IMG/VR virus record: IMGVR_UViG_3300016665_000824
Coordinates: 70,297-134,296 of that record
Source of the DNA: a virus
Length of the DNA stretch: 64,000 nt
Strand: one strand, 5' to 3'
A program made the translations under genes and the position numbers. This document shows, one piece after another, positions 11,300 through 60,448 of this stretch. The stretch's first letter is position 1. The number at the start of each line of letters is the position of its first letter. The notes below the pieces were generated by a model. The model saw nothing but the letters and a program-made list of their open reading frames with translations. It was not told the DNA's origin and searched no databases.

Positions 11300-11755
11300 A
11301 TGTCTAACTCTAGTTCTGCCACAAAATTGGCGATCGCAAGATTAAAAGGATCTGACCTGCCTATTTTTGTTCCAGTTTCAGTCTCTGAGAAAGTCGCAAC
11401 CCTAGTCAGGGAGTGTATTTTACAGTCCGACAGTTTAAAGATATTAAAAGTTACTACTACAGTTTACAACGAGCTTACTAAGCATTTAAAGCAGTACGAA
11501 AAGCCAAAATATACCATTCCTCAGTATCTTTTGATGCTCCTATATACGGTTTCTACTACTTCAGAATTGATCGAAAAACACAACAAGGGTTTAATTTCAG
11601 ATGACGAGTTTATTAACTGTATCAAAAACAACAAAAACGCAAACGGGACTAAAACCTCCCGCAAAATGGGTCGGAAGAAAGCAAGCGTTGATGCCAGCGA
11701 TCGCGCAGTACTTCCCCGCGAGGTTCACAAAAGAACCAGTTCCAAGGTTTCTTGA
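11300..11755 (+). CDS. hypothetical protein (3' end uncertain; overlaps MTase gene in another frame)
   Basis: 151-aa ORF; last ~40 codons look non-coding and overlap the Dam-like ORF. Confidence 0.3.
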   Translation: MSNSSSATKLAIARLKGSDLPIFVPVSVSEKVATLVRECILQSDSLKILKVTTTVYNELTKHLKQYEKPKYTIPQYLLMLLYTVSTTSELIEKHNKGLISDDEFINCIKNNKNANGTKTSRKMGRKKASVDASDRAVLPREVHKRTSSKVS

Positions 11756-12518
11756 TTTCAAAAAGGGTGTCGGCAATTTCCACGACCCTTTCGTTGGTAC
11801 TGGTAGTGCATTTTTGTATTTTGCGGATGGATTTCGAGGCGATCGCAAGATTTTTATTAGTGACAGTAATCCTGAACTCATTAATATTTGGCTGTGCATT
11901 CAAGCCGATCCTCTAAGGCTTTTAAGATCCTTGCTTGAATACAAGCGCCCTGTATTTAACAGCGCCGAATCGTACTATCACGAAAGGCAGATCTTCAATC
12001 AGCAGTTTAAAGGTTCTTACGACTACGAGCTAGCAGCAAGAATGATCTACTTAATTCAGGCTGGTTTCAATAGCCTATGGAGGGTTAACAGCGACGGTGA
12101 AATGAACACGCCTTTTGGCTCTCAGAAGCAAATTGCCCTTCTTACCGAGAATGATTTGACCGCGCTTTCGGTTCTCCTTCAAAAAGCGACAATCAAACAT
12201 CAGCCTTTTGAAGAGTCGCTAAAAGATGTACAACCCAATGATGTCGTCTATCTCGACCCGCCATACATTGAAGTCAAAAAGAATTCCTTCAATAAATACA
12301 CCACAAAAGGTTTTAGCAGAGAGCAGCAGATACTCCTCCGCCAAGAAGCCGATCGCCTGCACGATCTAGGCGCTTATGTATACGCCAGTAATAGCGATAC
12401 CCCCTTGAGTCGCGAAATTTGGTCGGGCTGGAAAATCGCAGAACTGACGAGATCGGGCTGCATGAACTCAGATGCAACCAAGCGTCAACGGGTTGGAGAG
12501 TTGTTATTTTATAAATAA
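11601..12518 (+). CDS. N6-adenine DNA methyltransferase, Dam family (D12 class)
   Basis: KWVGRK (cf. KWAGGK), FVGTGSAF SAM-binding motif, and DPPY catalytic motif (VVYLDPPYIE) in the translation. Confidence 0.8.
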   Translation: MTSLLTVSKTTKTQTGLKPPAKWVGRKQALMPAIAQYFPARFTKEPVPRFLDFKKGVGNFHDPFVGTGSAFLYFADGFRGDRKIFISDSNPELINIWLCIQADPLRLLRSLLEYKRPVFNSAESYYHERQIFNQQFKGSYDYELAARMIYLIQAGFNSLWRVNSDGEMNTPFGSQKQIALLTENDLTALSVLLQKATIKHQPFEESLKDVQPNDVVYLDPPYIEVKKNSFNKYTTKGFSREQQILLRQEADRLHDLGAYVYASNSDTPLSREIWSGWKIAELTRSGCMNSDATKRQRVGELLFYK

Positions 12519-28105: not shown

Positions 28106-28331
28106 CCCAGCAGGACATTATCCTAGACAAGATGCGTCGGAAGCAATCGGAATTTGAAGACTACTACGTTTTTAGCACTCACGACATAGTGACCCTATGT
28201 GAGGACAGTCATCTGGACTGGGACTTGGCTTTTGACCAGCTAATAGCTTTAAACAAGAGGAATCTAGTTGCTATAAATCCGACATATTGCGATCGCACAG
28301 GCAAATTTATCGGATTGTTGTGGGGTTTAAA

Positions 28332-29276
28332 ATGAGTAAAACCGTAGCCACGATGTATTCTGGCTTTGGCGGAGTTGATCAGGGTTTCGTTTTGGCAGGG
28401 TATACGCCAGTCTTTGCGATCGATAACAATCCTGATGCAGTAGCGGTTTATATCGAGAATTTTGGCAACCACTGTCTAGAGAAGGACGTTTGTGAGTTTG
28501 ATTATTCAAGAGTTAAAGCAGATCACCTCCATGCTTCTCCAAGCTGCAAAGAGTTTAGTAGCGCCAATCACCGTAGTAGCGAAACCGATCTCGATATTCG
28601 ATGCGCCCAAGCTACGGTTAAGGCGATCGCACAGATAAACCCTCAAACATTTTCCCTCGAAAATGTAAAGCAGTACGCTAAGTCTAAGTCTTTTGATTTG
28701 ATTAGGCGATCGCTACGAGAAATGGGCTACGCCTGCAACGTAACCGTAGTCAACGCGAAGGATTTCGGTGTATCCCAATCACGAGAAAGGCTAATTCTTC
28801 GAGCATGGGTTAAATCCCGCAAACGCCCTAGACCTTTGGCGTTGTACAAACAGTGTTTAACAATGGGGTGGCATGACGCGATCGCCGATTTAATCCCCAC
28901 TCTCAAACCACAACCATTGAATAATTGGCAGCTAGCCTCTCTTGAGGAGCAGGGTATAGACCCCACCAACCTAACTGCACTGGTTAGCAAAGATGGGTCT
29001 CGCAAGAAAAAAGGCTTTAAAAATACTTTTGCCTTGGTAATCCCCTCGTCCAAGCCTTGCCCAACCCTCAAGGCAATGGGGCATAATCAGCACTGTCAGC
29101 AGTATTCGATTGTGGTTAACGGTGTTGGTTATCGGATTTCTACCGAGGCGATCGCGAGACTAATGAGCTTTCCCGACTCATTCAAATTCTCAGGAGTGAA
29201 TTATAAAGACTGTATGGGTTTAGGTAATGCAGTACCGCCATTATTGGTAAGAGCGATCGCGGAAAGTTTTGCTTAA
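28332..29276 (+). CDS. DNA (cytosine-5)-methyltransferase
   Basis: Motif I YSGFGG, motif IV PSCKEFS (Pro-Cys catalytic dipeptide), ENV, QSRER, GNAV; start at ATG 28332. Confidence 0.8.
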   Translation: MSKTVATMYSGFGGVDQGFVLAGYTPVFAIDNNPDAVAVYIENFGNHCLEKDVCEFDYSRVKADHLHASPSCKEFSSANHRSSETDLDIRCAQATVKAIAQINPQTFSLENVKQYAKSKSFDLIRRSLREMGYACNVTVVNAKDFGVSQSRERLILRAWVKSRKRPRPLALYKQCLTMGWHDAIADLIPTLKPQPLNNWQLASLEEQGIDPTNLTALVSKDGSRKKKGFKNTFALVIPSSKPCPTLKAMGHNQHCQQYSIVVNGVGYRISTEAIARLMSFPDSFKFSGVNYKDCMGLGNAVPPLLVRAIAESFA

Positions 29277-43375: not shown

Positions 43376-44035
43376 CTAGCCTCCGTAATAGTCAGCACAT
43401 AAATACTCAAGCGATCGCCCTATTTTAACCGAGTAATTCTCACCCTCGATACTAGCTTCCTGCATCACCTTTTCTAAAGCCGCTCTCACGATCTCCACAG
43501 CGTCCGTAGGAACACTAAAGATCATTCGAGTGAATTCATCACTGGCTTCGGGAGGAGCTTTCTCCTTGGCGGCTTCGAGCATCTTGGCGAGACTTTCCTT
43601 TGTGTGAGGTGTGGGGAGATAAGCGCGATCGCCTAATTTCTTTTCAACCCTTTTGAGGGAAACACTTAGCTTAACTGGATCTTCTTCGCCGTGAGCCTTG
43701 GATGCGGAGGTGTATAACTCGTATTCTTCATCCTGTAAGCCCGTAATGACATTGCAATAGTAGTATTCCAGCCCCTCTAAGTATCTATGTTCGCCATTTA
43801 CAATCTCGTACTCACCCTCAATATGCGGATGGGGGCGAACAACAAGCGGCTCAATTTGGGTAAACATCTTTAAGCTCTCCCCCAAAGCCTTTTGGTGGTG
43901 AGGCTGCAAAACGTTTGAGTTCCAAGAGTTCGGATGTATCTTTGAGGTCTCAATCTTTACATTCCACTCTTTCTGGATTCGTTGCGCGATCGGTAGCGAA
44001 TAATCAATCTTCTTCGTCATCTTCATCCTCTTCAA
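43376..44035 (-). CDS. ParB-like nuclease-domain protein
   Basis: N-terminal segment (IHPNSW ... QIEPLVVRP ... YEIVNGEHRY) resembles the ParB N-terminal domain. Confidence 0.4.
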   Translation of the reverse strand: MKRMKMTKKIDYSLPIAQRIQKEWNVKIETSKIHPNSWNSNVLQPHHQKALGESLKMFTQIEPLVVRPHPHIEGEYEIVNGEHRYLEGLEYYYCNVITGLQDEEYELYTSASKAHGEEDPVKLSVSLKRVEKKLGDRAYLPTPHTKESLAKMLEAAKEKAPPEASDEFTRMIFSVPTDAVEIVRAALEKVMQEASIEGENYSVKIGRSLEYLCADYYGG

Positions 44036-45185
44036 ATTTCTTGGGCATAATTACCGATGTCAGGAATGATTCCTGCTCTACTCCGTCGCAAGGGCTAACC
44101 ATTACTAGCGGTCGAGTTCCCTCGTATACCTCCAGCTTAATGTGTTTTGATTTTGTGGTATCCAAAATATGCTGCAAGTATTTTATGTTGAACCGAGCAG
44201 CAAATCCTGACACGCCAACATCGCATGGCAGTGATTCTTCCACCCTGCCAACACCCGCAACTTCAGCAACAAGTATCAACTCATCACCCTTGATAGTGAT
44301 GTCAACCAAGTAGCTAGTAATCTCACCCTCACACAACGAAGCAACGGTCTTCAAGCTGGTAATCAGCTCTTTGCGATCGCACTTTACCGACCCAGACATC
44401 TCTTTGAGCCGTACGTTAACGAGACTCGATCGTACTGGTGGAAATGGTTGAGCAATTAGTGGTGAGATGATGGTTAGCGCGTGGCTATAAAACCAAATAT
44501 GGTTACTGGCTAAACGCACTTCAGTCTCTGCTTGGGTGATGTGCAGAACCTCTTTGAGCGATCGCGCAGGTATTGTCGCATTAATCAGCTTTTCACTCAA
44601 TTCGGGGTGGACAAATCTGATACAAGATCCTCGACAGCCATCGGTTGCTGTGAAGGATAGGAATCTCGTCGGGTCATCTTCACCATCAATGATTTCGTCG
44701 TACTCCGCTAGGTTCACACCCGTAAGTGCAGGCTTAGTTTCGTCGTTAGATACGAGCTTTAAGGTAGCCACAATGCCGTCCCGCAGTATATCTGTGGCGA
44801 TCGCAAAGGTGTCAGCATCAGTAATCTTGGGGGTGCTTGGGTATGAGTCGGCGCTGATAGTTGGTAGTGAGATTTTACTCTTACCACACTTAATAGTGGC
44901 AATACCTTCGGATACCTTGATTAAAACCTCTTCACCGTTGAGGGACTTTACCGCGTCGGAGAATCGCTTGGCATTGAGCGCGATCGCGCCCTCTTCTTTG
45001 ATACTATCGGAATCCTCTCTGCGGATTAGCCAAAGCTTTAGGTCGGTAGCTGTGATGGTGAAGAGATCGTTCTTCGCTTCGAGTCGAAAGTTTGTTAAGA
45101 TTTCCTGCGGTGGAGACTTAGAAACAGCTTCCTTTACTGCGTCCACCATCGATTTCAACGTTTTGAGAGGGAGTGTTAGTTGCAT
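44004..45185 (-). CDS. dnaN: DNA polymerase III beta sliding clamp
   Basis: 393 aa; N-terminus (LKTLKSMVDAV ... FTITATDLKLWL) matches DnaN pattern and length. Confidence 0.75.
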   Translation of the reverse strand: MQLTLPLKTLKSMVDAVKEAVSKSPPQEILTNFRLEAKNDLFTITATDLKLWLIRREDSDSIKEEGAIALNAKRFSDAVKSLNGEEVLIKVSEGIATIKCGKSKISLPTISADSYPSTPKITDADTFAIATDILRDGIVATLKLVSNDETKPALTGVNLAEYDEIIDGEDDPTRFLSFTATDGCRGSCIRFVHPELSEKLINATIPARSLKEVLHITQAETEVRLASNHIWFYSHALTIISPLIAQPFPPVRSSLVNVRLKEMSGSVKCDRKELITSLKTVASLCEGEITSYLVDITIKGDELILVAEVAGVGRVEESLPCDVGVSGFAARFNIKYLQHILDTTKSKHIKLEVYEGTRPLVMVSPCDGVEQESFLTSVIMPKKFEEDEDDEED

Positions 45186-45479: not shown

Positions 45480-45983
45480 CTATTCAAAAACCGAGTGGCA
45501 AACGAGACATACATAAGCAGCGATCGCGTAGACATACTTATACTCCGATGGGAGGAATGTCGGTTGCAATAGGGCATATCCAAAGACTCCTGTGAAAACA
45601 AAGGCGATCGCTGCCACCATCTTTTTACCGATCAGTTTTGCCCATAGGTTGGCAAGACCTAAAACCAGCAACCAGAAAAGTAGTGACGGACGGAGCAACA
45701 GCCAGTTAACGAAGAATCTAACCGCATGGATGTCATGCCTGCGATGGAATAATCTAGAAACAGGGTGGACTATGCCGTGGTGAACGAAGTTACTTAAGGG
45801 TATGCAGTCTCGAAGTAGTAACTCGCGAGAAAGATTAGCGTAGGTCATGTGATGGGTCTGATTAGATTTTAGGAACGGGAATACAGCACACCTGTCGAAC
45901 ATAATGCTACGAAATTTTCGAGACTTCTGCTGCCAATCTTTTGAATGAATGTAGGCTTGATAATCTACTCTTACTTTTGTCAT
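45480..45983 (-). CDS. integral membrane protein with His-box-like motifs
   Basis: Hydrophobic C-terminal half; HHGIVH and HRRHDIH motifs; last gene of coupled operon. Confidence 0.4.
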   Translation of the reverse strand: MTKVRVDYQAYIHSKDWQQKSRKFRSIMFDRCAVFPFLKSNQTHHMTYANLSRELLLRDCIPLSNFVHHGIVHPVSRLFHRRHDIHAVRFFVNWLLLRPSLLFWLLVLGLANLWAKLIGKKMVAAIAFVFTGVFGYALLQPTFLPSEYKYVYAIAAYVCLVCHSVFE

Positions 45984-47128
45984 TGTTTTTTGAATCTCTT
46001 ATAAACAGTTTCTGTATACTCAGCAATACTGGGGTAGGAGTTTCCACCATAGGTTTGGGGACGAGTGTTGTTAAATAGAGCTGGATCTCCCGAATACCAA
46101 ATCGAAGCAGCCTTCCGAATTTGTTCTTCTTCGGATTTCGATGTTGGGGCGACCTGTTTTAGAGCTTCCTCTAACTTGCAGTCAATGATCTTGACCTGCT
46201 TAGTCTTGTCTTTAAGGAATTCCTGTTCGGTTAATGGAGAGCCGAGGCATTGAGTACTCCACGACTTGATGTTTTCAGGCATTATCTGCCCATAACCCAA
46301 TGCGCCGCTATCTGCATTGATAGCTTTATGGTCGTGGTTTGATTCTTGACCAGCGATCGCATTACGAAGTCTCTCAACGACAGGTTTGGCTGGAGCCTTG
46401 GTCGGCTCTGTCCCCTGCAATAACCACGAGACAATACCTCTTGGAGGATTAATCAACTCGCCCTTGAACTTAACTCCGACGTGCAGGTGTGGACCGCTAG
46501 ATGCTCCCGAATTTCCAGATTTGGCAATCATCGATCCGACGGGATGCCTACCTGAATAGCACTCGTTTAAGTGGAATAACTGGATTTCATATTCGGGTAG
46601 CAGAGGGCTGGTTACATAAGCTGCCACCCCTTCTGGCGGATTGAATGGGCTGAACGGGCAGGCAACATCTACAAAACCGTCATGAAATGCACTTTTAGAG
46701 CCTAATTTCCCGATCGCGTAAACAGGAGTTCCAACTGGAGTTGCGATGTCAACGCCTTTGTGGTCTTCGCTACATGATGGGCATGGTTTTTCTCTCTTAC
46801 CAAAGCCAGAAGTGACTTCATAGCCAAGTATTTTGTCCCCAACTTTAAGTGGCTCGTTAAAGTCCTCATCGGGCTTGAAGTTAACTTCAAGAGATGTCTT
46901 TGCGACTGTTGGTAGTCCCAGAAACCTGTAAGCCCACTTAACCGAATCGTTTGCTGGCTTGTAGAGGATCGCGATCGCAATTAACGCGATCGCGAATAAT
47001 TTACCGTTTCTCCAGCGAGTCTCCTTTGCTTCGAGCTTCTCGTGGTAAACGATCTGAAACTCTTTGCTGGTTTCCTCCAGTTTCGGTTTTGGTGGTAGAA
47101 GGGGTCTCTTCTGGTGGCTTAAAACCAT
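45980..47128 (-). CDS. membrane-anchored bifunctional peptidoglycan hydrolase (M23 peptidase + lytic transglycosylase)
   Basis: N-terminal TM segment (LFAIALIAIAILY); M23 motifs HKGVDIATPVGTPVYA and SGPHLHVGV; SLT-like segment GQESNHD ... GALGYGQIMPEN. Confidence 0.7.
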   Translation of the reverse strand: MVLSHQKRPLLPPKPKLEETSKEFQIVYHEKLEAKETRWRNGKLFAIALIAIAILYKPANDSVKWAYRFLGLPTVAKTSLEVNFKPDEDFNEPLKVGDKILGYEVTSGFGKREKPCPSCSEDHKGVDIATPVGTPVYAIGKLGSKSAFHDGFVDVACPFSPFNPPEGVAAYVTSPLLPEYEIQLFHLNECYSGRHPVGSMIAKSGNSGASSGPHLHVGVKFKGELINPPRGIVSWLLQGTEPTKAPAKPVVERLRNAIAGQESNHDHKAINADSGALGYGQIMPENIKSWSTQCLGSPLTEQEFLKDKTKQVKIIDCKLEEALKQVAPTSKSEEEQIRKAASIWYSGDPALFNNTRPQTYGGNSYPSIAEYTETVYKRFKKQ

Positions 47129-47567
47129 ATCTAATAGGCTCGTCTAGACCTTGATCGAGTTGCACGTAAAGTTGTTTGGTTGAGTTGGTAAGGAATTTAA
47201 GATAAGTAACCGATCCTTTCTTGCCTTCACAAAAATAGTTGGGGAATTCTTTGAGAACCTGTCTTGTTGTTTTACCTTCAAGCTTGAGGGCTTGACTCAT
47301 TGGTACAGGTATTGTCTGAGATGAAGTGGTAAGGCAATCTTCGGTGTTGCCATCGAGTACTTTTGCTAGCTGTGTCTCCGCGATCGGGCGGAGATCTACG
47401 AAGGCGAGATAGCCTTCTTCTGGAAGATTTAAAGAAATAGCGATAAGCGCACCTAGCAGCAATGCGTTTATCGCTATGTCACGTTTTTTCATTGGTTTAG
47501 CGACGCTCAGCCCTTGCTTGACGAGGAGAAAATGCCACATCGTCATTTTTTTTAGTGTTCTCGGCAA
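47001..47567 (-). CDS. hypothetical exported protein
   Basis: Signal/TM-like N-terminus; 3' part overlaps hydrolase gene in another frame (boundary uncertain). Confidence 0.35.
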   Translation of the reverse strand: MPRTLKKMTMWHFLLVKQGLSVAKPMKKRDIAINALLLGALIAISLNLPEEGYLAFVDLRPIAETQLAKVLDGNTEDCLTTSSQTIPVPMSQALKLEGKTTRQVLKEFPNYFCEGKKGSVTYLKFLTNSTKQLYVQLDQGLDEPIRYGFKPPEETPSTTKTETGGNQQRVSDRLPREARSKGDSLEKR

Positions 47568-48015
47568 CGATGTCGTTAACCTTTTTTTCTGCGATCACAC
47601 CAGTAAACTCTTTAACCGCAGAAACTCCGTTAAAAGCCCATGCGTTAGGCATTCCACCAGCTTCCGAGGTAGTGAGATAACGAGGCGTGGGATTGAAAAA
47701 ACTAAGAAGAGCCATAATGCCCATAGGAATAACCACGATCGCTGTGCATCCGTATAGAAGCGCCCATCGTTTGTTGCTCAAAACAGAGTCTATAAATGCT
47801 CTAGCGGAAACGATGATTGCCTGATGCTGATCTTTGTCGATCAAGTAAACTCTTTTACCTGATTCAAGTCCATCAACAAGACCATCACCGTTGATATCGC
47901 CACTAAAAGCCGTCTTACCTGCTTTCCCGTAAACAACAATATCGCATTCTGCTCGTTTCATTGTCATTGGTTTTCCTCCTCCACCGCCCTGTGGCGGCAT
48001 ATTTCCTGCGTTCAT
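47497..48015 (-). CDS. hypothetical membrane protein
   Basis: Gly-rich N-terminus and one TM segment (WALLYGCTAIVVIPMGIMALL). Confidence 0.4.
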   Translation of the reverse strand: MNAGNMPPQGGGGGKPMTMKRAECDIVVYGKAGKTAFSGDINGDGLVDGLESGKRVYLIDKDQHQAIIVSARAFIDSVLSNKRWALLYGCTAIVVIPMGIMALLSFFNPTPRYLTTSEAGGMPNAWAFNGVSAVKEFTGVIAEKKVNDIVAENTKKNDDVAFSPRQARAERR

Positions 48016-48018
48016 GTT

Positions 48019-49362
48019 TTAAGCCGTTCTTGGAAACAGCACTAGGTTGTCTTTACCGATCGCGAGGATTCTATCAAGAGCTTCCTCCACCGATTCTTCA
48101 GTGACTTCCGACTTCTCGGAATCAAACCTGAAGCCGTCCAGATGCTTGAGATCTGGCATTAATGCAATCTTGGGTATACCCATTGTGGTTAGCAATACTG
48201 GGCGATCGCCTTGCTTCTTAGCCATTGCGATCGCATCTCCAAGCATCCCCGCAAGAGATAATCTTTGCTGCTTATTAGGGAATAGTTTTGCATCGGCAAG
48301 AGCTGCTTCAATGGGCCTATAGCCAACATCATTCTTTTCACCCATGCGACCTAGCGCAAGAACTGAGAAGCAGCCTCGCACTGGGTCGCTGAAGCCAATT
48401 TGAGTACAAAGGTGAGTTTGCGCGACAAGAATAAGGCGAACACACATCTCTCTTCCCATAGCAACTATCTGATTGAGCATTCCAAAAAATTCTGCCTCTC
48501 TTTTTGAGGAAGCAATCATGTCTTGTAGTACCCACCACTCGTCAAGGATTAGATATTGAGGGGCAAAGACTGGGCGCTTCCCGCCTTCTCGTAATATCTT
48601 TTGTACTGCGCGAATCCTATTCTTCATGATCTTAAAGGCGCGGCTAATCTGCTCGGAAGCAGCATCAAGCTGCTCGTCTTGCGTGTCTTGATCTAAGTAG
48701 GTGACGATGCCATCTTCGCTTTGAAGCCCTAGCCAGTCCGTTGTCTTTGGATCGACAATACCGAATTTAGAAGCGGGGTTGATCTTCTTTATTCGCTGGA
48801 TAAGCGCCTTTAGCAAGGTAGACTTACCCGCGCCAGACTTGGTGGCAATCAGTACATGAAGATCTGTGTGAGCCACCTCGCCGATAATATCTCCAGTAAA
48901 CACTCCTTTCGAGTACTCGGTAACAGCTATAGGCTCTTCGTCCGTATAAGGCTCGTCATCAAACTGAGGAGGTCTAACTGCTGCTACTGGTTGAGGGCGA
49001 GGCGCGGATGTGCGCTGAACATTGGTATTGCGAATAATTACTGGGGCAGCAACTTGCTGTTGAGCGTGAGGCAGAGCTACTGGAGTCTCCTCGCCTTTGG
49101 GTTGTTCATCTTCAAGGTTGCTTGCCAAGCCGACACCTGACGCGATCGCCATGCCAAGAAAAGCCAAAGTAGCAATAGGATTATTGTAGGAACTGGGCTG
49201 AAGTACAGCCTGTTGCCCATGATCGTTAACACTTGAGTCTACCCTCCTGTATTCGTCTGCGGACTTAAATAGGACATCTCTCGGTAATACCGACCATCCA
49301 GCAGCTCCTAGCCATGCTGCACAGCTAATGCCTAATAGTAGGTTTACTGTTGACTTCTTCAT
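48019..49362 (-). CDS. membrane-anchored P-loop ATPase, FtsK/SpoIIIE/VirD4-like
   Basis: N-terminal TM segments, Pro/Gln-rich linker, Walker A TKSGAGKST, Walker B YLILDEWW. Confidence 0.55.
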   Translation of the reverse strand: MKKSTVNLLLGISCAAWLGAAGWSVLPRDVLFKSADEYRRVDSSVNDHGQQAVLQPSSYNNPIATLAFLGMAIASGVGLASNLEDEQPKGEETPVALPHAQQQVAAPVIIRNTNVQRTSAPRPQPVAAVRPPQFDDEPYTDEEPIAVTEYSKGVFTGDIIGEVAHTDLHVLIATKSGAGKSTLLKALIQRIKKINPASKFGIVDPKTTDWLGLQSEDGIVTYLDQDTQDEQLDAASEQISRAFKIMKNRIRAVQKILREGGKRPVFAPQYLILDEWWVLQDMIASSKREAEFFGMLNQIVAMGREMCVRLILVAQTHLCTQIGFSDPVRGCFSVLALGRMGEKNDVGYRPIEAALADAKLFPNKQQRLSLAGMLGDAIAMAKKQGDRPVLLTTMGIPKIALMPDLKHLDGFRFDSEKSEVTEESVEEALDRILAIGKDNLVLFPRTA

Positions 49363-50093
49363 AGCTTCTTGTTCAGTTTTCCAGCTTGGGCATTGGGGCT
49401 GGACTCGATTAGGTCTAGCCTTATTCTTTGAAGCTCGTCAAGATTGCTTCTTACTACTTCTGGAGCGGTTTCAACCAGTTCAACTCTTCCCTCGCGAGCC
49501 GCCTCAATAGCTAAAAGATTTGCGTTTGCGAGAATCATCTCCTTGGCATCTCTAGCGCGAGAAGCAGCTTGCTGGCGAGCTAGCCAAGCGTCTCGTTTTC
49601 TGTTTAGATCGCAGTCAATCCCTTTCTCGGATCGAAGGCAGTCTTTATCGTTTTTATCCTTGACCGCTTTGTTTGCGGCTTGGAGATAATCATTCGCTAG
49701 AATTTTTATTGCAGCGTCCGTGTCTTTGTCTAAGGCTGCTTTAGCACCAGCTTTCGCCTCGCTAAAACTAATCTTTTTGCCTTCTAAAGATTTTTGGAGC
49801 AACTCCTCGGATCTTTGGTCAAAGGATTTAGGAACGAAAGGATCTATTCTTTCTGCGGGTTTGGGTTGGCTGTTGACCACTGCCGCGATCGCAATAACAG
49901 TAGAGACAACGCCTAGCCCGATATATATTAAGTTTTTTGGAGTAGCCCAAGCGAGGTTCGACTGAGCGGGTGCTGTAGCTGCGGGTGTCGTGGGAGCAAG
50001 TCGGCTGGGCTGTCTTTCTGTGATTCGAGGGGTAGCGATTGGAGTATCCGCTACTTCCTCAAACTCATCTTGCATTGCGGCAGTGTCAAGCAT
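49359..50093 (-). CDS. membrane-anchored coiled-coil protein
   Basis: Pro-rich N-terminus, TM segment (IYIGLGVVSTVIAIAAVV), Lys/Ala-rich coiled coil. Confidence 0.4.
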   Translation of the reverse strand: MLDTAAMQDEFEEVADTPIATPRITERQPSRLAPTTPAATAPAQSNLAWATPKNLIYIGLGVVSTVIAIAAVVNSQPKPAERIDPFVPKSFDQRSEELLQKSLEGKKISFSEAKAGAKAALDKDTDAAIKILANDYLQAANKAVKDKNDKDCLRSEKGIDCDLNRKRDAWLARQQAASRARDAKEMILANANLLAIEAAREGRVELVETAPEVVRSNLDELQRIRLDLIESSPNAQAGKLNKKL

Positions 50094-50095
50094 AT

Positions 50096-50458
50096 CTACC
50101 TCCCCGCCGAAGGAAGAAATTGACTGATTGGGCGGTTCGTAGGAAGAAAAGGATTGTCTTCCGAGTTGTTCACGCCAGTAAAAAAATCACCGAGAACTTC
50201 TCCGCTATAGGCGATCGCGTCAGGGAGTTTTTGAATTACGTTGAGCGCAATCTGTTCTCCAACCGCAAAGGCGATCGTTCCTGCGATTTCATTGCCGACT
50301 TGAGTTCCGACTGTGCCAACCTGAGTGCGAACCTGCATTTGTACCTGTTCTGGGGTTAGAAGGGCGGACTGGGGAGCAGTAGCCCTAACATCTTCTACAG
50401 GAGTTACATCTAGCAAGGCTTGCTCTTCTTCGGTTAAATGAGCGTTATCTTTGGACAT
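50096..50458 (-). CDS. hypothetical protein
   Basis: 120-aa ORF, coupled. Confidence 0.35.
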   Translation of the reverse strand: MSKDNAHLTEEEQALLDVTPVEDVRATAPQSALLTPEQVQMQVRTQVGTVGTQVGNEIAGTIAFAVGEQIALNVIQKLPDAIAYSGEVLGDFFTGVNNSEDNPFLPTNRPISQFLPSAGR

Positions 50459-50720
50459 CTTCGTATGTACTCTCTAAAAAATCTGAACATTTTTGGTAAT
50501 TAGACAGGGCAGCTTTTTTTGTAAAACCTCTTGCTTTGAGGCTGGTCTCTTTTCCGATTGCGGCTATCTGTCTTGCAGTTTTAAGACCGCAAGGAGATTT
50601 GATTCTTACTCCTCTCTTCTTTAAAAGGCGGTATCCCCAATCCTTAAAAGTCCCAAAAGGTATGCCAATCTGCTCTGCCCACTCGTGAAGGTGGCGTTCT
50701 ACTTGGCTTGTTTGCGTCAT
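50445..50720 (-). CDS. hypothetical basic protein
   Basis: 91-aa ORF, coupled. Confidence 0.35.
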   Translation of the reverse strand: MTQTSQVERHLHEWAEQIGIPFGTFKDWGYRLLKKRGVRIKSPCGLKTARQIAAIGKETSLKARGFTKKAALSNYQKCSDFLESTYEDVQR

Positions 50721-50908
50721 AGGTCTTCAAAGTTTTCTGGAACAAGGTCGAACGAATCAAAGTTTGCGAGCTGAGATTCTACCTGTTCTAGTTCCAAGCT
50801 AAGATTCTGGGCATCTTCTCCTTGACTCTGTAACTCAGAGATAGACCTCTTAAGTTGATACTTTCTATTAAATAATGATCTAATCAACTCGTCTTGGGCG
50901 TTTTGCAT
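50717..50908 (-). CDS. hypothetical coiled-coil protein
   Basis: 63-aa ORF, first gene of coupled operon. Confidence 0.3.
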   Translation of the reverse strand: MQNAQDELIRSLFNRKYQLKRSISELQSQGEDAQNLSLELEQVESQLANFDSFDLVPENFEDL

Positions 50909-50930
50909 AAGCTTTATGGATAAATATTCG

Positions 50931-50986
50931 TCTGATTAGACTGTCCGATCACCTGTCCAATGGACATCTGATTAGACTGTCCGATC
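50931..50986. promoter_or_regulatory. two 20-bp direct repeats (TCTGATTAGACTGTCCGATC), candidate operator
   Basis: Copies at 50931-50950 and 50967-50986 in the divergent region between the operon start (50908) and RHH gene (51089). Confidence 0.45.
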
Positions 50987-51088
50987 AGAATAAAATTAGT
51001 GTACTTAAGTTATTCGCACTTGTCAACAAAATAGTAGAAACTCGTTTTGAATGCGCTAATATTGGGCAATTCAACCTATTAAGACCTT

Positions 51089-51352
51089 ATGAGCGTCACT
51101 CAGACTGCGCGTTTCCCCGATGATTTACATGCTGCATTGAAAGAACACTGCGATCGCACAGGAAATAGCGCCAACGCAGAAATAATCCTCGCAGTGCGAA
51201 AACATCTGGGTATGCCAACAGTCGAAGATCGTCTCGATAGTCTTGAAGAGGGATTGAGAAAATGTATTGATAGGTTGAATAGGCTAGAGGCTAGCGCGAT
51301 CGCCACTCAGCAATCTTCCGACACCGATATTCGGTCCAGTGCGGATGATTAG
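51089..51352 (+). CDS. ribbon-helix-helix (Arc/MetJ/CopG-type) transcriptional regulator
   Basis: N-terminal TARFPDDLHAALKEHCDRTGNSANAEIILAVRKHL fits beta-strand/helix/helix RHH pattern. Confidence 0.45.
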   Translation: MSVTQTARFPDDLHAALKEHCDRTGNSANAEIILAVRKHLGMPTVEDRLDSLEEGLRKCIDRLNRLEASAIATQQSSDTDIRSSADD

Positions 51353-51593
51353 TCGGCGTGTACCAATTTTCATATTTGTAAGTACCCTTTGACCTGTTGC
51401 AAGGCGTACAAGCTGGTACGGTATTTGCAAAGTCGTCGCTACCCGAATCATGGCGCGGAATGATATGGTCTAGTCCGTTTGCCTCGTTACCGCAGTAGGC
51501 ACATTTATAGTCAAACTCTTGGAACGTATAATCTCTAATCTTTTGCAAAACATCTTTTTTCCTAATGCAGTCAGATAGGGATATATAGAGCAT
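51291..51593 (-). CDS. HNH endonuclease
   Basis: CAYCG ... LDHIIP ... ACTPCNRSKG HNH motif; start set at ATG 51593 (ORF track 51638). Confidence 0.7.
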   Translation of the reverse strand: MLYISLSDCIRKKDVLQKIRDYTFQEFDYKCAYCGNEANGLDHIIPRHDSGSDDFANTVPACTPCNRSKGTYKYENWYTPTNHPHWTEYRCRKIAEWRSR

Positions 51594-51709
51594 ATTCAAT
51601 ACCCATGTTTTGACAATGCTGCCACAAAATTGAAACAAGTGCGGCGATCGCTACAGATTTGGCGAACCAAATATCGCTATACTGACACAAGAAGATTTTT
51701 AAAAACTAA

Positions 51710-59033: not shown

Positions 59034-59575
59034 CGCAGATGTGGAATACCCTTCTTGAACAAGACCCAAGGTTCAAGATGGTAGTGGACTTAGCAACCCC
59101 ACGAGGTAATCGCAAAAATGTGATGCCCCTCACCCGCGAGAATGTTCGGATTGCCTTCGCCGCATTTAATGACGGTATTGCTGAGCAGTTAACCGACTTG
59201 GCGATCGCCTGTTTTAACCGTTCCCACTCTCCTCGATTCGTCACCACCGATGAAGGTGATGAATTTATTGAAACTAGCGAAGAAGAAATCTATTATCAAT
59301 GGGAGCCTGAAGCGGCTTTGAGGATCTGCAACCAACGCCTTGATGGGTTTCTAATTGAGATCAGCGATCGTGGCACTATTACCAAATTTAAGTACGAGCG
59401 ACCACCTTTCCTGTATCCTCACGGCTGGGCCTATCAACCAACCATGCCCGAAGTTCCCGACGATCCTGAATGCTGCACGTTATTTGATCGAAGAAGCCAT
59501 GCTCGTCGCCGTCGAAGATTTGGGAATGTCGGCGACAAGTATGACCTGCATGGTAAAGCGTGGAAGAAGGGTTAA
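58997..59575 (+). CDS. hypothetical protein
   Basis: 192-aa ORF. Confidence 0.35.
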   Translation: MDEEQQPEHRTITQMWNTLLEQDPRFKMVVDLATPRGNRKNVMPLTRENVRIAFAAFNDGIAEQLTDLAIACFNRSHSPRFVTTDEGDEFIETSEEEIYYQWEPEAALRICNQRLDGFLIEISDRGTITKFKYERPPFLYPHGWAYQPTMPEVPDDPECCTLFDRRSHARRRRRFGNVGDKYDLHGKAWKKG

Positions 59576-59823
59576 GGCAGTATCCTGTCCAGCAGGTAGA
59601 TAATTAAGTGCATAGCCTTAACATTCCTGTTCGCGCAGTATATCTTCAGGCGAGTATGCAGTGAAGCAGGTAGATCAACCGTGATCCGCACAGTCCGCTC
59701 CTTCTCCCCTTCCACGGGCAACCCATCCAAAATATTTCCCGCAGTATTGTTTGTGTTCAGATCGGAATTAGCCTTGATAAAATTCTGCTCAATTGTTTCG
59801 GTAAGAGGTATACGCTTAGACAC
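59572..59823 (-). CDS. ParG-like ribbon-helix-helix protein (candidate centromere-binding partner of ParA)
   Basis: C-terminal RITVDLPASLHTRLKIYCANRNVKAMHLIIYLLDRIL is RHH-like; immediately downstream of and overlapping parA. Confidence 0.45.
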   Translation of the reverse strand: MSKRIPLTETIEQNFIKANSDLNTNNTAGNILDGLPVEGEKERTVRITVDLPASLHTRLKIYCANRNVKAMHLIIYLLDRILP

Positions 59824-60448
59824 AGCTCAGCACCTCCTCAAATAAAGCTTCGTACTCTGCCGCCGAATCTTGGGCGGCTTTGCTGTTTAATCCCCAGACA
59901 GTTGTGCGTTGACCAGACGAGTCGGCGATCGCCTGTTTCTGGTGAATCACTGTTTCTAACAATGGGATAACCGATATGGCTTTTAAGGTGGCGATCGCCT
60001 CTTCCTTGAGCATGGTTCGAGGGACTGCGCGGTTTAAAAAGAATGCGGCTCTGGGTAAACCCCCTCGCACTGACTGAGCTTGCAGTATTAGCTTTACTGA
60101 GTCCATTGCCGAGTTGAGGTCTAACCTTGTTGGTTGACATGGAACAATTGCTAGATCAGTTCTTAGTAGGATTGCGCGAGTTACCTCCGACAAGTTGGCG
60201 GGACCATCGAGGATTAAGTAGTCGCTCTTTAGGGCTGGTATTTTGTCGAGAATGCTGTCGGAATCGGACATGATTGTATATGCGATCGGAGTGGCGATCG
60301 TGCCTGCCCATTTACTTGAAGATTGCTGACCATCGGCATCGACCAGGATTACGTCTTTATCGTGGCGGCGCAGATACTCTGCCAAGTGGACTGAAGTGGT
60401 GGACTTGCCACAACCACCTTTTTGATTGACCAACGAGATTACAGTCAT
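59816..60448 (-). CDS. parA: partition ATPase ParA (small, type Ib-like)
   Basis: Deviant Walker A NQKGGCGKST, 210 aa. Confidence 0.8.
   Translation of the reverse strand: MTVISLVNQKGGCGKSTTSVHLAEYLRRHDKDVILVDADGQQSSSKWAGTIATPIAYTIMSDSDSILDKIPALKSDYLILDGPANLSEVTRAILLRTDLAIVPCQPTRLDLNSAMDSVKLILQAQSVRGGLPRAAFFLNRAVPRTMLKEEAIATLKAISVIPLLETVIHQKQAIADSSGQRTTVWGLNSKAAQDSAAEYEALFEEVLSCV

What the first reader, a model, noticed from the sequence alone, without database searches (positions are those of the whole stretch)
50931..51352. RHH regulator with two 20-bp direct repeats at the head of the membrane operon
The direct repeats TCTGATTAGACTGTCCGATC (50931-50950 and 50967-50986, 36 bp apart) lie exactly between the divergently oriented Arc/CopG-type RHH gene (51089) and the first gene of the nine-gene coupled operon. 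RHH dimers typically bind tandem repeats, so this is a plausible repressor-operator switch for the membrane module.
Basis: inference. Interest (0 to 1): 0.5.

Follow-up and report, generated by a model that had tools for sequence, protein, structure and literature searches.

The report
Phage RHH regulator; repeats probably not its operator
The two 20-bp repeats and the small ribbon-helix-helix gene are real and sit at a conserved two-way promoter in a large cyanobacterial phage genome, but comparison with related phages suggests the repeats belong to the operon's own swappable front end and are not the binding site of this regulator; this is an ordinary kind of phage gene switch.

Summary
Observation confirmed. 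TCTGATTAGACTGTCCGATC(A) occurs exactly twice (50931-50951, 50967-50987; 0 of 100 shuffles gave two matches). Both copies lie between a leftward operon of membrane proteins and a DNA-translocase-like ATPase, and a divergent 87-aa gene.

That gene encodes an Arc/Mnt-like ribbon-helix-helix domain followed by a C-terminal coiled coil. The link to Pfam Arc is transitive, through an intermediate protein. The window is a large cyanophage-like genome (portal, DnaG/DnaB/DnaN, ParA).

Interpretation partly supported.
- A sigma70-type promoter, TTGACA-17-TACACT on the minus strand (51026-50998), is conserved in relatives. It puts the repeats at about +5 to +61 of the operon leader.
- Each 21-mer is a quasi-palindrome flanking the palindrome TGTCCAATGGACA.
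- Eight related locus types were compared. Six share an invariant DNA-reading ribbon (MSVTQTARFPDD) and a conserved ~90-bp promoter block.
- Those six carry three unrelated leader-repeat types, and each type goes with a different first gene of the operon.
- Where the ribbon changes (L042, L047), the promoter block changes instead.

My reading: the RHH probably acts on the conserved promoter block. The repeats are probably a cassette-specific operator, possibly for the 91-aa protein; this is inferred, with no binding evidence. Ordinary in kind, a new member of a known kind, modest interest.

The parts
50931..50951 (.). Direct repeat copy 1 (21 bp, TCTGATTAGACTGTCCGATCA). It is itself an imperfect palindrome. 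It lies at about +41 to +61 of the predicted leftward transcript.
50954..50966 (.). Central palindrome TGTCCAATGGACA. This is the only TGTCC-N3-GGA in the window. It is homologous to the TGTCC(G/A)TTGGA units of relatives L005 and L015.
50967..50987 (.). Direct repeat copy 2 (21 bp, identical to copy 1). It lies at about +5 to +25 of the predicted leftward transcript.
50998..51026 (-). Predicted sigma70-type promoter of the leftward operon: -35 TTGACA (51026-51021), 17-nt spacer, -10 TACACT (51003-50998). The -35 is invariant in 7 related locus types and the -10 in 6.
50998..51088 (.). Conserved non-coding block (63-83% identity among 7 locus types, against about 40-60% for the leader). It holds the leftward promoter, the invariant GCGCTA(A/G)TATTG(G/T)GCA with a candidate rightward -10 TAATAT (51057-51062), and the short RHH leader. 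It is the candidate site of RHH action.
   Evidence: the -10 assignment is inference
51089..51352 (+). Gene for the 87-aa Arc/Mnt-like RHH protein: ribbon residues about 3-9, helices 11-24 and 28-39, coiled-coil helix 45-76, acidic tail.
50717..50908 (-). First leftward ORF (63 aa, acidic, coiled-coil-like). Its stop overlaps the next gene's start (ATGA). It is specific to this window, so its status as a gene is uncertain.
50445..50720 (-). 91-aa protein, homologous (39-43% identity) to the 76-aa first gene of L005 and L015, the loci that share TGTCC-type repeats. It is a candidate cassette-specific DNA-binding protein; this is inferred from a helix-turn-helix-like sequence pattern only.
   Evidence: no support
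45480..50458 (-). Rest of the leftward membrane operon: 120 aa, 244 aa (TM), FtsK/T4-coupling-protein-like ATPase of 447 aa (48019-49362), two TM proteins, an M23 peptidase plus SLT hydrolase of 382 aa (45980-47128), and a 167-aa TM protein.
51291..51638 (-). HNH endonuclease gene, convergent with the RHH gene and overlapping its 3' end by 62 bp. The overlap is conserved in relatives.

Best explanation
The 180-bp intergenic region is a back-to-back divergent control region of a large cyanophage-like (possibly phage-plasmid) genome.

The conserved part (50998-51088) carries the leftward promoter of the membrane/DNA-translocase operon (TTGACA-17-TACACT) and the promoter and leader of an Arc/Mnt-like RHH protein with a C-terminal coiled coil. 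That protein most likely binds within this conserved block, around the leftward -10/spacer and/or its own -10. It would thereby control the operon and itself, as P22 Mnt does at the divergent Pant/Pmnt promoters.

The two 21-bp repeats are not part of that conserved unit. Together with the central palindrome TGTCCAATGGACA, they form an array of TGTCC-type quasi-palindromic sites in the transcribed leader (about +5 to +61). This array belongs to a variable cassette made of the leader repeats plus the small first gene(s). The cassette sits between the conserved promoter and the conserved body of the operon.

The repeats are most likely the operator of a cassette-specific factor. The best candidate is the 91-aa protein, giving a second, Cro-like autoregulatory input by promoter-proximal blocking.

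Shown: the repeats, their symmetry, the conservation pattern, and the RHH fold assignment.
Inferred: promoter activity, the transcription start site, and every protein-DNA pairing.
For: 1. The repeats are real and non-random.

2. The minus-strand promoter was found by scan. Its hexamers are invariant while its spacer varies across relatives, as expected of a working promoter.

3. The RHH ribbon and first 12 residues are identical in six locus types. Four-fold degenerate sites in the same codons are only about 30-65% identical. The RHH ribbon is the portable determinant of DNA specificity (PMC3413123, read, which also cites Knight & Sauer 1989 for Arc/Mnt). These six proteins should therefore read the same DNA.

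4. The only non-coding DNA shared by those six loci is the block from the leftward -10 to the RHH ATG, at 63-83% identity. Leaders are about 40-60% identical between classes.

5. Leader repeats sort with the first gene:
- Class A (window, L005, L015): 91/76-aa gene with TGTCC-N3-GGA units. L005 has three 11-bp tandem copies, unchanged in 12 contigs.
- Class B (L013, L021): a different first gene with TCATAAGGT twice, 35-36 bp apart.
- Class C (L016, L042): a ~90-aa protein with TTGnTGAGTC units; its N-terminus reads as helix-turn-helix by inspection, with no database support. L042 has about three copies with a 23-bp period.
The operon body downstream is the same in classes A and C.

6. When the RHH reading head changes, the promoter block changes:
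- L042 (ribbon VQTIRL) replaces AGTGTACnTA with a palindrome of 14-bp arms across the leftward -10/spacer.
- L047 has a different N-terminal domain and a homologous coiled coil (hhalign 91.8%). Its intergenic region is entirely different, with TATTTAAT-type repeats over the leftward promoter and next to the RHH start.

7. The Mnt-like architecture, RHH plus C-terminal coiled coil, is supported.
Against: - No binding data exist. Every protein-site pairing is inferred from co-variation in only eight locus types, of which just two have an altered RHH head.
- No clear repeated or palindromic RHH site could be identified inside the conserved block of the window type.
- Searches with block motifs found no further convincing copies in the window.
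- Co-variation of leader and first gene could partly reflect simple physical linkage.
- The 91-aa protein has no detectable DNA-binding domain. Pfam, PHROGs and PDB searches were empty, and its AlphaFold model is unusable (pLDDT 56).
- In the window, a 63-aa ORF lies between the 91-aa gene and the repeats.
- A 21-bp quasi-palindrome is the size of an Arc or Mnt operator, so RHH binding to the repeats is structurally plausible.
Confidence: 0.45

Rival explanations
1. One reading: the RHH protein itself binds the two 21-bp repeats, one dimer-of-dimers per quasi-palindrome as Arc and Mnt do on their 21-bp operators. It would repress the leftward operon by occupying +5 to +61.
For: - The repeat units are 21-bp quasi-palindromes immediately downstream of the predicted promoter.
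- The protein has an Arc-like RHH domain plus a coiled coil that could make tetramers.
- The divergent arrangement is conserved.
- The TGTCC core loosely resembles the invariant TGTCAA of the conserved block. This is an observation on the sequence and may be chance.
Against: - An identical ribbon in six loci is paired with three unrelated leader-repeat types.
- L013, L021 and L016 lack TGTCC units altogether.
- L016 and L042 share a leader motif although their ribbons differ.
- Ribbon sequence determines RHH specificity (PMC3413123).
Confidence: 0.17
2. The repeats act at the RNA level. The leader transcript folds into a long 5'-terminal hairpin that stabilises the operon mRNA or serves as a processing or attenuation signal, with no protein operator involved.
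For: The minus-strand RNA 50992-50906 folds to -28.1 kcal/mol, against -16.3 ± 3.1 for shuffles (z = -3.8, 0 of 200 shuffles as stable). The hairpin starts within a few nucleotides of the predicted 5' end.
Against: - The closest leader relatives, L005 and L015, which share the TGTCC motif, form no significant structure (z = -0.4 and +0.2). The conserved feature is therefore a DNA motif, not an RNA fold.
- There is no Rfam match.
- The hairpin follows automatically from a palindromic DNA site array.
- No U-tract follows it, so it is not an intrinsic terminator.
Confidence: 0.12
3. The perfect 21-bp repeat is a recent 36-bp local duplication (replication slippage) within an older site array. The second copy has no function of its own, or the whole leader is neutral sequence.
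For: - The two copies are 100% identical while the surrounding leader is diverged from all relatives.
- Only 1.6 copies of a 36-bp unit are present, and Tandem Repeats Finder reports nothing.
- The window has one more TGTCC unit than L015 in an otherwise alignable stretch.
Against: - Repeat arrays occupy the same position in most relatives: L005, L021 and L042 by the repeat finder, and L013, L015 and L016 by inspection of the sequences.
- The L005 array is identical in 12 contigs from different samples.
- Palindromic symmetry and helical-turn spacing are typical of protein-binding sites.
Confidence: 0.13
4. The repeats are a cis-site for DNA handling rather than transcription: an oriT or clt-like site recognised by a TraY-like RHH or by the FtsK-like translocase, a partition site, or replication iterons.
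For: - There is a weak TraY-domain hit (E = 0.0097) and weak PHROG 'partition' hits.
- The operon encodes an FtsK-like ATPase whose distant relatives on Nostoc plasmids are annotated as T4SS coupling proteins, and an M23/SLT hydrolase.
Against: - The TraY score is below Pfam's cutoff (16.4 vs 21.3 bits).
- No relaxase was seen among the ORFs scanned.
- The element has its own ParA plus RHH partition pair 8 kb away (59572-60448).
- There are only two copies, at a non-integral helical spacing, and none elsewhere in the window.
- The site varies among relatives that share the same translocase family.
Confidence: 0.05

Closest known systems
Phage P22 immI region: Mnt repressor at the divergent Pant/Pmnt promoters, with Arc (established knowledge; Knight & Sauer 1989 is cited in PMC3413123)
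   Same: - A small phage RHH protein with an Arc-type N-terminal domain followed by a C-terminal coiled coil.
- It is transcribed divergently from an operon, with a compact shared control region.
- A 21-bp quasi-palindromic site lies next to the promoter.
   Different: - There is no detectable sequence similarity to Mnt or Arc chains in the PDB.
- The link to Pfam Arc is only transitive, through P0015.
- The controlled operon encodes membrane proteins and a DNA-translocase-like ATPase, not an antirepressor.
- Comparative data suggest the conspicuous 21-bp sites belong to another factor.
Lambdoid-type divergent repressor/Cro switches (established knowledge)
   Same: Two small DNA-binding proteins are encoded divergently. 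The first gene of the 'early' operon is a small HTH-like protein in classes C and D and possibly class A. Operators are clustered at and just downstream of the promoters, and specificity modules are swapped among related phages.
   Different: One partner is an RHH rather than an HTH. No shared tripartite operator was identified. Lysogeny is not demonstrated; only a ParA module hints at plasmid-like maintenance.
Plasmid RHH regulators of transfer or partition genes, such as pSK41 ArtA and TP228 ParG (PMC2777438, title and abstract as listed; PMC3413123, read)
   Same: An RHH protein on a mobile element lies next to genes that resemble DNA-transfer functions. Cooperative binding to arrays of short boxes spaced about one helical turn apart is typical of this group.
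   Different: The protein is not adjacent to ParA, and a separate ParA/RHH pair exists. No relaxase was found. Box arrays are not conserved with the ribbon.

Membership tests
Ribbon-helix-helix superfamily, Arc-like domain (Pfam PF03869 and relatives) | Sequence match to a curated RHH family model above its threshold | tested here: not met
   Direct hits are all sub-threshold: FitA-like_RHH 19.4 bits (cutoff 27), TraY 16.4 (21.3), NCBIfam YlcI/YnfO_N 20.1 (30).
Ribbon-helix-helix superfamily, Arc-like domain (Pfam PF03869 and relatives) | Homology to a bona fide family member (transitive) | tested here: met
   The family profile A1 aligns to P0015 at hhalign probability 97.5% (E = 8e-12) over 60 columns that include the ribbon and both helices. 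P0015 passes Pfam Arc (26.6 bits, cutoff 20.4).
Ribbon-helix-helix superfamily, Arc-like domain (Pfam PF03869 and relatives) | Beta-alpha-alpha fold of about 45 residues | tested here: inconclusive
   The AlphaFold monomer (pLDDT 74) shows residues 1-10 extended, then helices 11-24 and 28-39. Foldseek E-values are all above 0.7, but the hits are mostly Arc, CopG, FitA, VapB, ParD and NikA; Arc 1bdv aligns at 1.7 Å over 34 columns. The strand forms only in the dimer, which was not modelled.
Ribbon-helix-helix superfamily, Arc-like domain (Pfam PF03869 and relatives) | Dimerises and reads the DNA major groove with the paired ribbon | not testable with these tools
   Needs biochemistry or protein-DNA co-folding.
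Mnt-type repressor (RHH plus C-terminal tetramerising coiled coil) | C-terminal coiled-coil helix after the RHH domain | tested here: met
   The model has a helix at 45-76. The heptad pattern is L49/L52/L56/I60/L63/L66/A70, and D61, R62, L63, L66, E67 are invariant. Oligomeric state was not tested.
Mnt-type repressor (RHH plus C-terminal tetramerising coiled coil) | Sequence relationship to P22 Mnt | tested here: not met
   A profile search of all PDB chain sequences at E ≤ 10 returned no Mnt or Arc chain.
Cognate repressor-operator pair (RHH with the 21-bp repeats) | Operator sequence conserved, or co-varying, with the regulator's DNA-reading residues across relatives | tested here: not met
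   The ribbon is identical in six locus types, but there are three unrelated repeat types at this position. The repeats follow the first operon gene instead.
TraY-like relaxosome accessory protein / oriT | TraY-domain match above threshold, and an adjacent relaxase with an oriT | tested here: not met
   TraY scores 16.4 bits, below the 21.3 cutoff. No relaxase domain was found in the ORFs scanned; not every ORF of the 134-kb contig was scanned.
Type Ib partition centromere-binding protein (ParG-like) | Encoded immediately downstream of a ParA ATPase, with repeats forming the centromere or operator upstream | tested here: not met
   The ParA (59816-60448) has its own 83-aa RHH partner (59572-59823; 56B_RHH and RHH_10 hits), 8 kb from this locus.
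Type II toxin-antitoxin RHH antitoxin (FitA/VapB/ParD-like) | A co-directional, adjacent toxin gene in the same operon | tested here: not met
   No co-directional gene abuts the RHH gene. A convergent HNH gene overlaps its 3' end, and the next plus-strand ORF starts 358 bp downstream.

The most novel reading that the evidence does not exclude
The control region is a modular two-regulator switch specific to a so far undescribed group of large freshwater cyanophages or phage-plasmids. An orphan Arc/Mnt-like RHH is fixed to a conserved divergent promoter. A freely exchangeable cassette, made of an operator array plus a small DNA-binding protein, is plugged in between that promoter and a conserved operon. 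The operon encodes a conjugation-like membrane DNA-translocase (FtsK/coupling-protein-like ATPase, M23/SLT hydrolase, TM proteins). Related phages would thus keep the same machinery but carry different 'immunity' specificities for it.
Probability: 0.25. Interest if true: 0.5.

Novelty: new member of a known kind. Interest (0 to 1): 0.3.

Why it matters
If the reading is right, it gives a concrete and cheap experiment for an uncultured cyanophage lineage: two proteins, two DNA fragments, and a clear prediction of which binds which. It also shows that the obvious repeats next to a regulator gene need not be that regulator's site.

The switch controls an unusual phage-borne operon (FtsK-like ATPase, peptidoglycan hydrolase, membrane proteins) whose role is unknown. 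Knowing its regulators would help decide when in the phage or plasmid life cycle it is expressed. In kind, however, a small RHH repressor at divergent phage promoters is textbook.

Tried and rejected
- DNA searches of 50400-51700 against plasmid and phage collections found no match.
- A protein search of the RHH against plasmids found no match.
- Searching the 91-aa protein in the 5.8-billion-protein database returned only itself.
- An exhaustive profile search with the RHH family found only one other 50% cluster, one remote Arc-like protein, and two hits that appear spurious (a multi-stretch match to the coiled-coil region and a 13-residue match).
- Two DNA-pattern scans of IMG/VR with conserved block motifs returned only the already known contig plus chance hits.
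- An IMG/VR scan with the L042-type RHH found nothing.
- The genome-contig scan with the FtsK-like protein gave three distant loci (39-42% identity). L002 was inspected and has a different upstream context; L003 and L004 were not examined.
- The repeat half-sites and block motifs have no convincing further copies in the window.
- Single-sequence AlphaFold of the 91-aa protein gave pLDDT 56, so no fold search was run on it.
- Profile comparison of class A and class C first-gene proteins showed no relationship. PDB profile searches for both were empty.
- Rfam gave only a sub-threshold chance hit, and TRF found nothing.
- A cyanobacterial LexA-box reading of AGTGTACTTAAGT was considered and dropped, because the second half-site is not conserved in relatives (sequence inspection).

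Full report
**1. The observation**

The 20-mer TCTGATTAGACTGTCCGATC occurs at 50931-50950 and 50967-50986, exactly as reported. The identity runs to 21 nt, with a 36-bp start-to-start spacing. Allowing three mismatches, there is no other copy in the 64-kb window. None of 100 dinucleotide-preserving shuffles gave two matches.

- Each copy is a quasi-palindrome, TGAT-TA-GAC-T-GTC-CG-ATCA. The degenerate palindrome pattern hits only these two sites.
- The spacer contains the palindrome TGTCCAATGGACA.
- CTGTCC(G/A)AT occurs three times at 12- and 24-bp spacing.
- The whole stretch forms an inverted repeat with 37-nt arms.

**2. The setting**

The window comes from a 134-kb metagenome contig. It carries the cyanobacterial HIP1 palindrome GCGATCGC. 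Its genes include:
- a phage portal (Pfam E = 1.5e-57), closest to the cyanosiphoviruses S-CBS4, vB_AphaS-CL131 and PaV-LD at about 30% identity;
- DnaG, DnaB, DnaN and ThyX;
- Dam- and Dcm-type methylases and HNH endonucleases;
- a ParA plus small RHH partition pair at 59572-60448.

A related contig is listed in IMG/VR. The element is therefore a large cyanophage-like genome, possibly maintained as a plasmid.

The leftward 'membrane operon' (50908 down to 45480) encodes:
- small proteins of 63, 91 and 120 aa;
- a 244-aa TM protein;
- a 447-aa FtsK-like ATPase with N-terminal TM segments. Its distant relatives (26-28% identity) on Nostoc plasmids are annotated as T4SS coupling proteins;
- two further TM proteins;
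- an M23 peptidase plus SLT hydrolase;
- another TM protein.

**3. The protein**

Direct family hits are weak and below threshold: FitA-like RHH, TraY and YlcI/YnfO. The AlphaFold model (pLDDT 74) has an extended N-terminus, helices 11-24 and 28-39, and a long helix 45-76.

Foldseek E-values are individually insignificant, but the list is dominated by Arc, CopG, FitA, VapB, ParD and NikA. Arc co-crystal chains superpose at 1.7 Å over 34 columns.

An exhaustive profile search of 1.84 billion representatives shows the family is tiny, with only one other 50% cluster. It also recovered a 76-aa protein (P0015) that passes Pfam's Arc threshold and aligns to the family at 97.5% hhalign probability across both the RHH domain and the C-terminal helix.

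I therefore accept 'Arc-type RHH plus C-terminal coiled coil'. This is the domain architecture of P22 Mnt (established knowledge), although there is no sequence similarity to Mnt itself.

**4. The promoter**

The only sigma70-type match in 50600-51500 is on the minus strand: TTGACA (51026-51021), a 17-nt spacer, and TACACT (51003-50998). In aligned relatives both hexamers are invariant while the spacer varies, which is how a functional promoter behaves.

The predicted start near 50991 puts repeat copy 2 at about +5 to +25, the central palindrome at +26 to +38, copy 1 at +41 to +61, and the first ATG at +84. These positions are inferred, not mapped.

**5. Comparative test of the operator claim**

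I collected eight locus types in which an RHH gene diverges from the same operon:
- the window;
- L005 (many contigs), L015, L013, L021 and L016;
- L042/L044, reached through the conserved HNH gene;
- L047, reached through the FtsK-like protein in IMG/VR.

Six of them encode proteins only 61-84% identical overall, yet all six begin with the same MSVTQTARFPDD. Four-fold degenerate sites in the same codons are about 30-65% identical, close to saturation. The N-terminal ribbon is the portable specificity determinant of RHH proteins (PMC3413123). These six proteins should therefore recognise the same DNA.

The non-coding DNA they share is a block running from the leftward -10 to the RHH start codon (63-83% identity). 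It includes the invariant stretch GCGCTA(A/G)TATTG(G/T)GCA. The leader to its left is at background similarity between classes. At the position of the window's repeats there are three unrelated motif families, and each accompanies a different first gene:

| Class | Loci | First gene | Leader motif |
|---|---|---|---|
| A | window, L005, L015 | 91/76-aa family (39-43% identity) | TGTCC-N3-GGA units |
| B | L013, L021 | different first gene | TCATAAGGT twice, 35-36 bp apart |
| C | L016, L042 | ~90-aa protein, HTH-like by inspection only (50% identity) | TTGnTGAGTC units |

Further details:
- In class A, L005 has three perfect 11-bp tandem copies, unchanged in 12 contigs.
- The window's centre and right part (TGTCCAATGGACATCTGATTAG) matches L015 (TGTCCATTGGATGTCTGATGAG) at 18 of 22 positions.
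- In class C, L042 has about three copies with a 23-bp period.
- The operon body downstream is the same in classes A and C.

The leader and first gene thus behave as a cassette flanked by conserved DNA on both sides.

**6. What follows the RHH head instead**

L042 has the ribbon VQTIRL in place of TQTARF. It keeps the class C leader but replaces the otherwise invariant AGTGTACnTA over the leftward -10/spacer with a palindrome of 14-bp arms.

L047 has a different N-terminal domain (YLGLNIS...) joined to a homologous coiled coil (hhalign 91.8%). Its intergenic region is entirely different. TATTTAAT-type repeats lie over the leftward promoter and again beside the RHH start.

With only two altered heads this is suggestive, not conclusive. 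It does point to the promoter block as the RHH target.

**7. Alternatives**

- RNA hairpin: the window leader folds to -28 kcal/mol (z = -3.8), but L005 and L015 leaders do not fold significantly. The shared feature is therefore a DNA motif. There is no Rfam family match.
- Recent duplication: a 36-bp duplication explains the perfect identity of the two copies and may be part of the history. It does not explain why most relatives have a repeat array at the same place.
- oriT, clt, partition or iteron roles: the evidence is thin. The TraY hit is sub-threshold, no relaxase was seen, a separate ParA/RHH pair exists, and there are only two copies.

**8. Verdict**

The conspicuous repeats, however, are probably not its operator.

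My best model (confidence about 0.45) is an Mnt-like RHH acting on the conserved divergent promoter block, plus a cassette-specific operator array in the leader. The 91-aa protein is the leading candidate binder for that array, but this is purely inferred. Its DNA-binding nature has no database or structural support.

In kind this is a familiar phage control region, a new member of a known kind and of modest interest. The cassette-like exchange and the unusual operon it controls are the parts worth a follow-up.

Noticed in passing
window 51291-51638 (-), overlapping 51089-51352 (+): An HNH endonuclease gene converges on the RHH gene, and the two 3' ends overlap by 62 bp. The same overlap is seen in L013/L014 and L042. 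The HNH protein is 85-88% identical across loci, whereas the RHH is only 61-67% and orf68 70-78%. This suggests either a mobile (homing) gene or antisense coupling with the RHH.
   Followed up: partly
window 45480-50908 (-), especially 48019-49362 and 45980-47128: A phage-like genome carries an operon resembling a minimal conjugation or DNA-translocation module: a TM-anchored FtsK/coupling-protein-like ATPase, an M23 plus SLT peptidoglycan hydrolase, and several TM proteins. DnaN (44004-45185) and a ParB_N-domain protein (43376-44035) follow it. Distant relatives of the ATPase sit on Nostoc plasmids and are annotated as T4SS coupling proteins. Almost nothing similar exists in sequenced phages.
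   Followed up: partly
window 59572-60448 (-): A ParA-type ATPase (210 aa) is followed by an 83-aa RHH protein (56B_RHH and RHH_10 hits). This is a type Ib-like partition module in a genome that also has a phage portal (3257-4912), which suggests a phage-plasmid lifestyle.
   Followed up: partly
window 50717-50908 (-): A 63-aa acidic, coiled-coil-like ORF is translationally coupled (ATGA) to the 91-aa gene. It is absent from all related loci and was not called by the metagenome gene caller. It may be a window-specific insertion between the repeats and the 91-aa gene.
   Followed up: partly
L005 5240-5632 (-) and equivalents in L006-L011, L015: In the L005 class a second, paralogous HNH endonuclease gene (130 aa, about 37% identical to the window HNH) sits inside the operon between the 76-aa and 133-aa genes. 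The window has no such gene there.
   Followed up: no
L042 1056-1087: A nearly perfect palindrome with 14-bp arms (ACAAGTAGTAATAC / GTAATACTACTTGT) spans the leftward promoter spacer and -10. It occurs only in the locus whose RHH ribbon differs (VQTIRL).
   Followed up: partly
window 51150-51157 and 51296-51303; also 51643-51650: HIP1 octamers (GCGATCGC) lie inside the RHH coding sequence. The first sits in the invariant CDR codons and is kept in all relatives. This marks the host as a cyanobacterium.
   Followed up: no
window 11601-12518 (+), 28287-29276 (+); repeats at 50946-50949 and 50982-50985: The genome encodes Dam-class (D12) and C5 cytosine methyltransferases. Each 21-bp repeat contains a GATC, so methylation could affect binding at these sites. 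This is speculation only.
   Followed up: no
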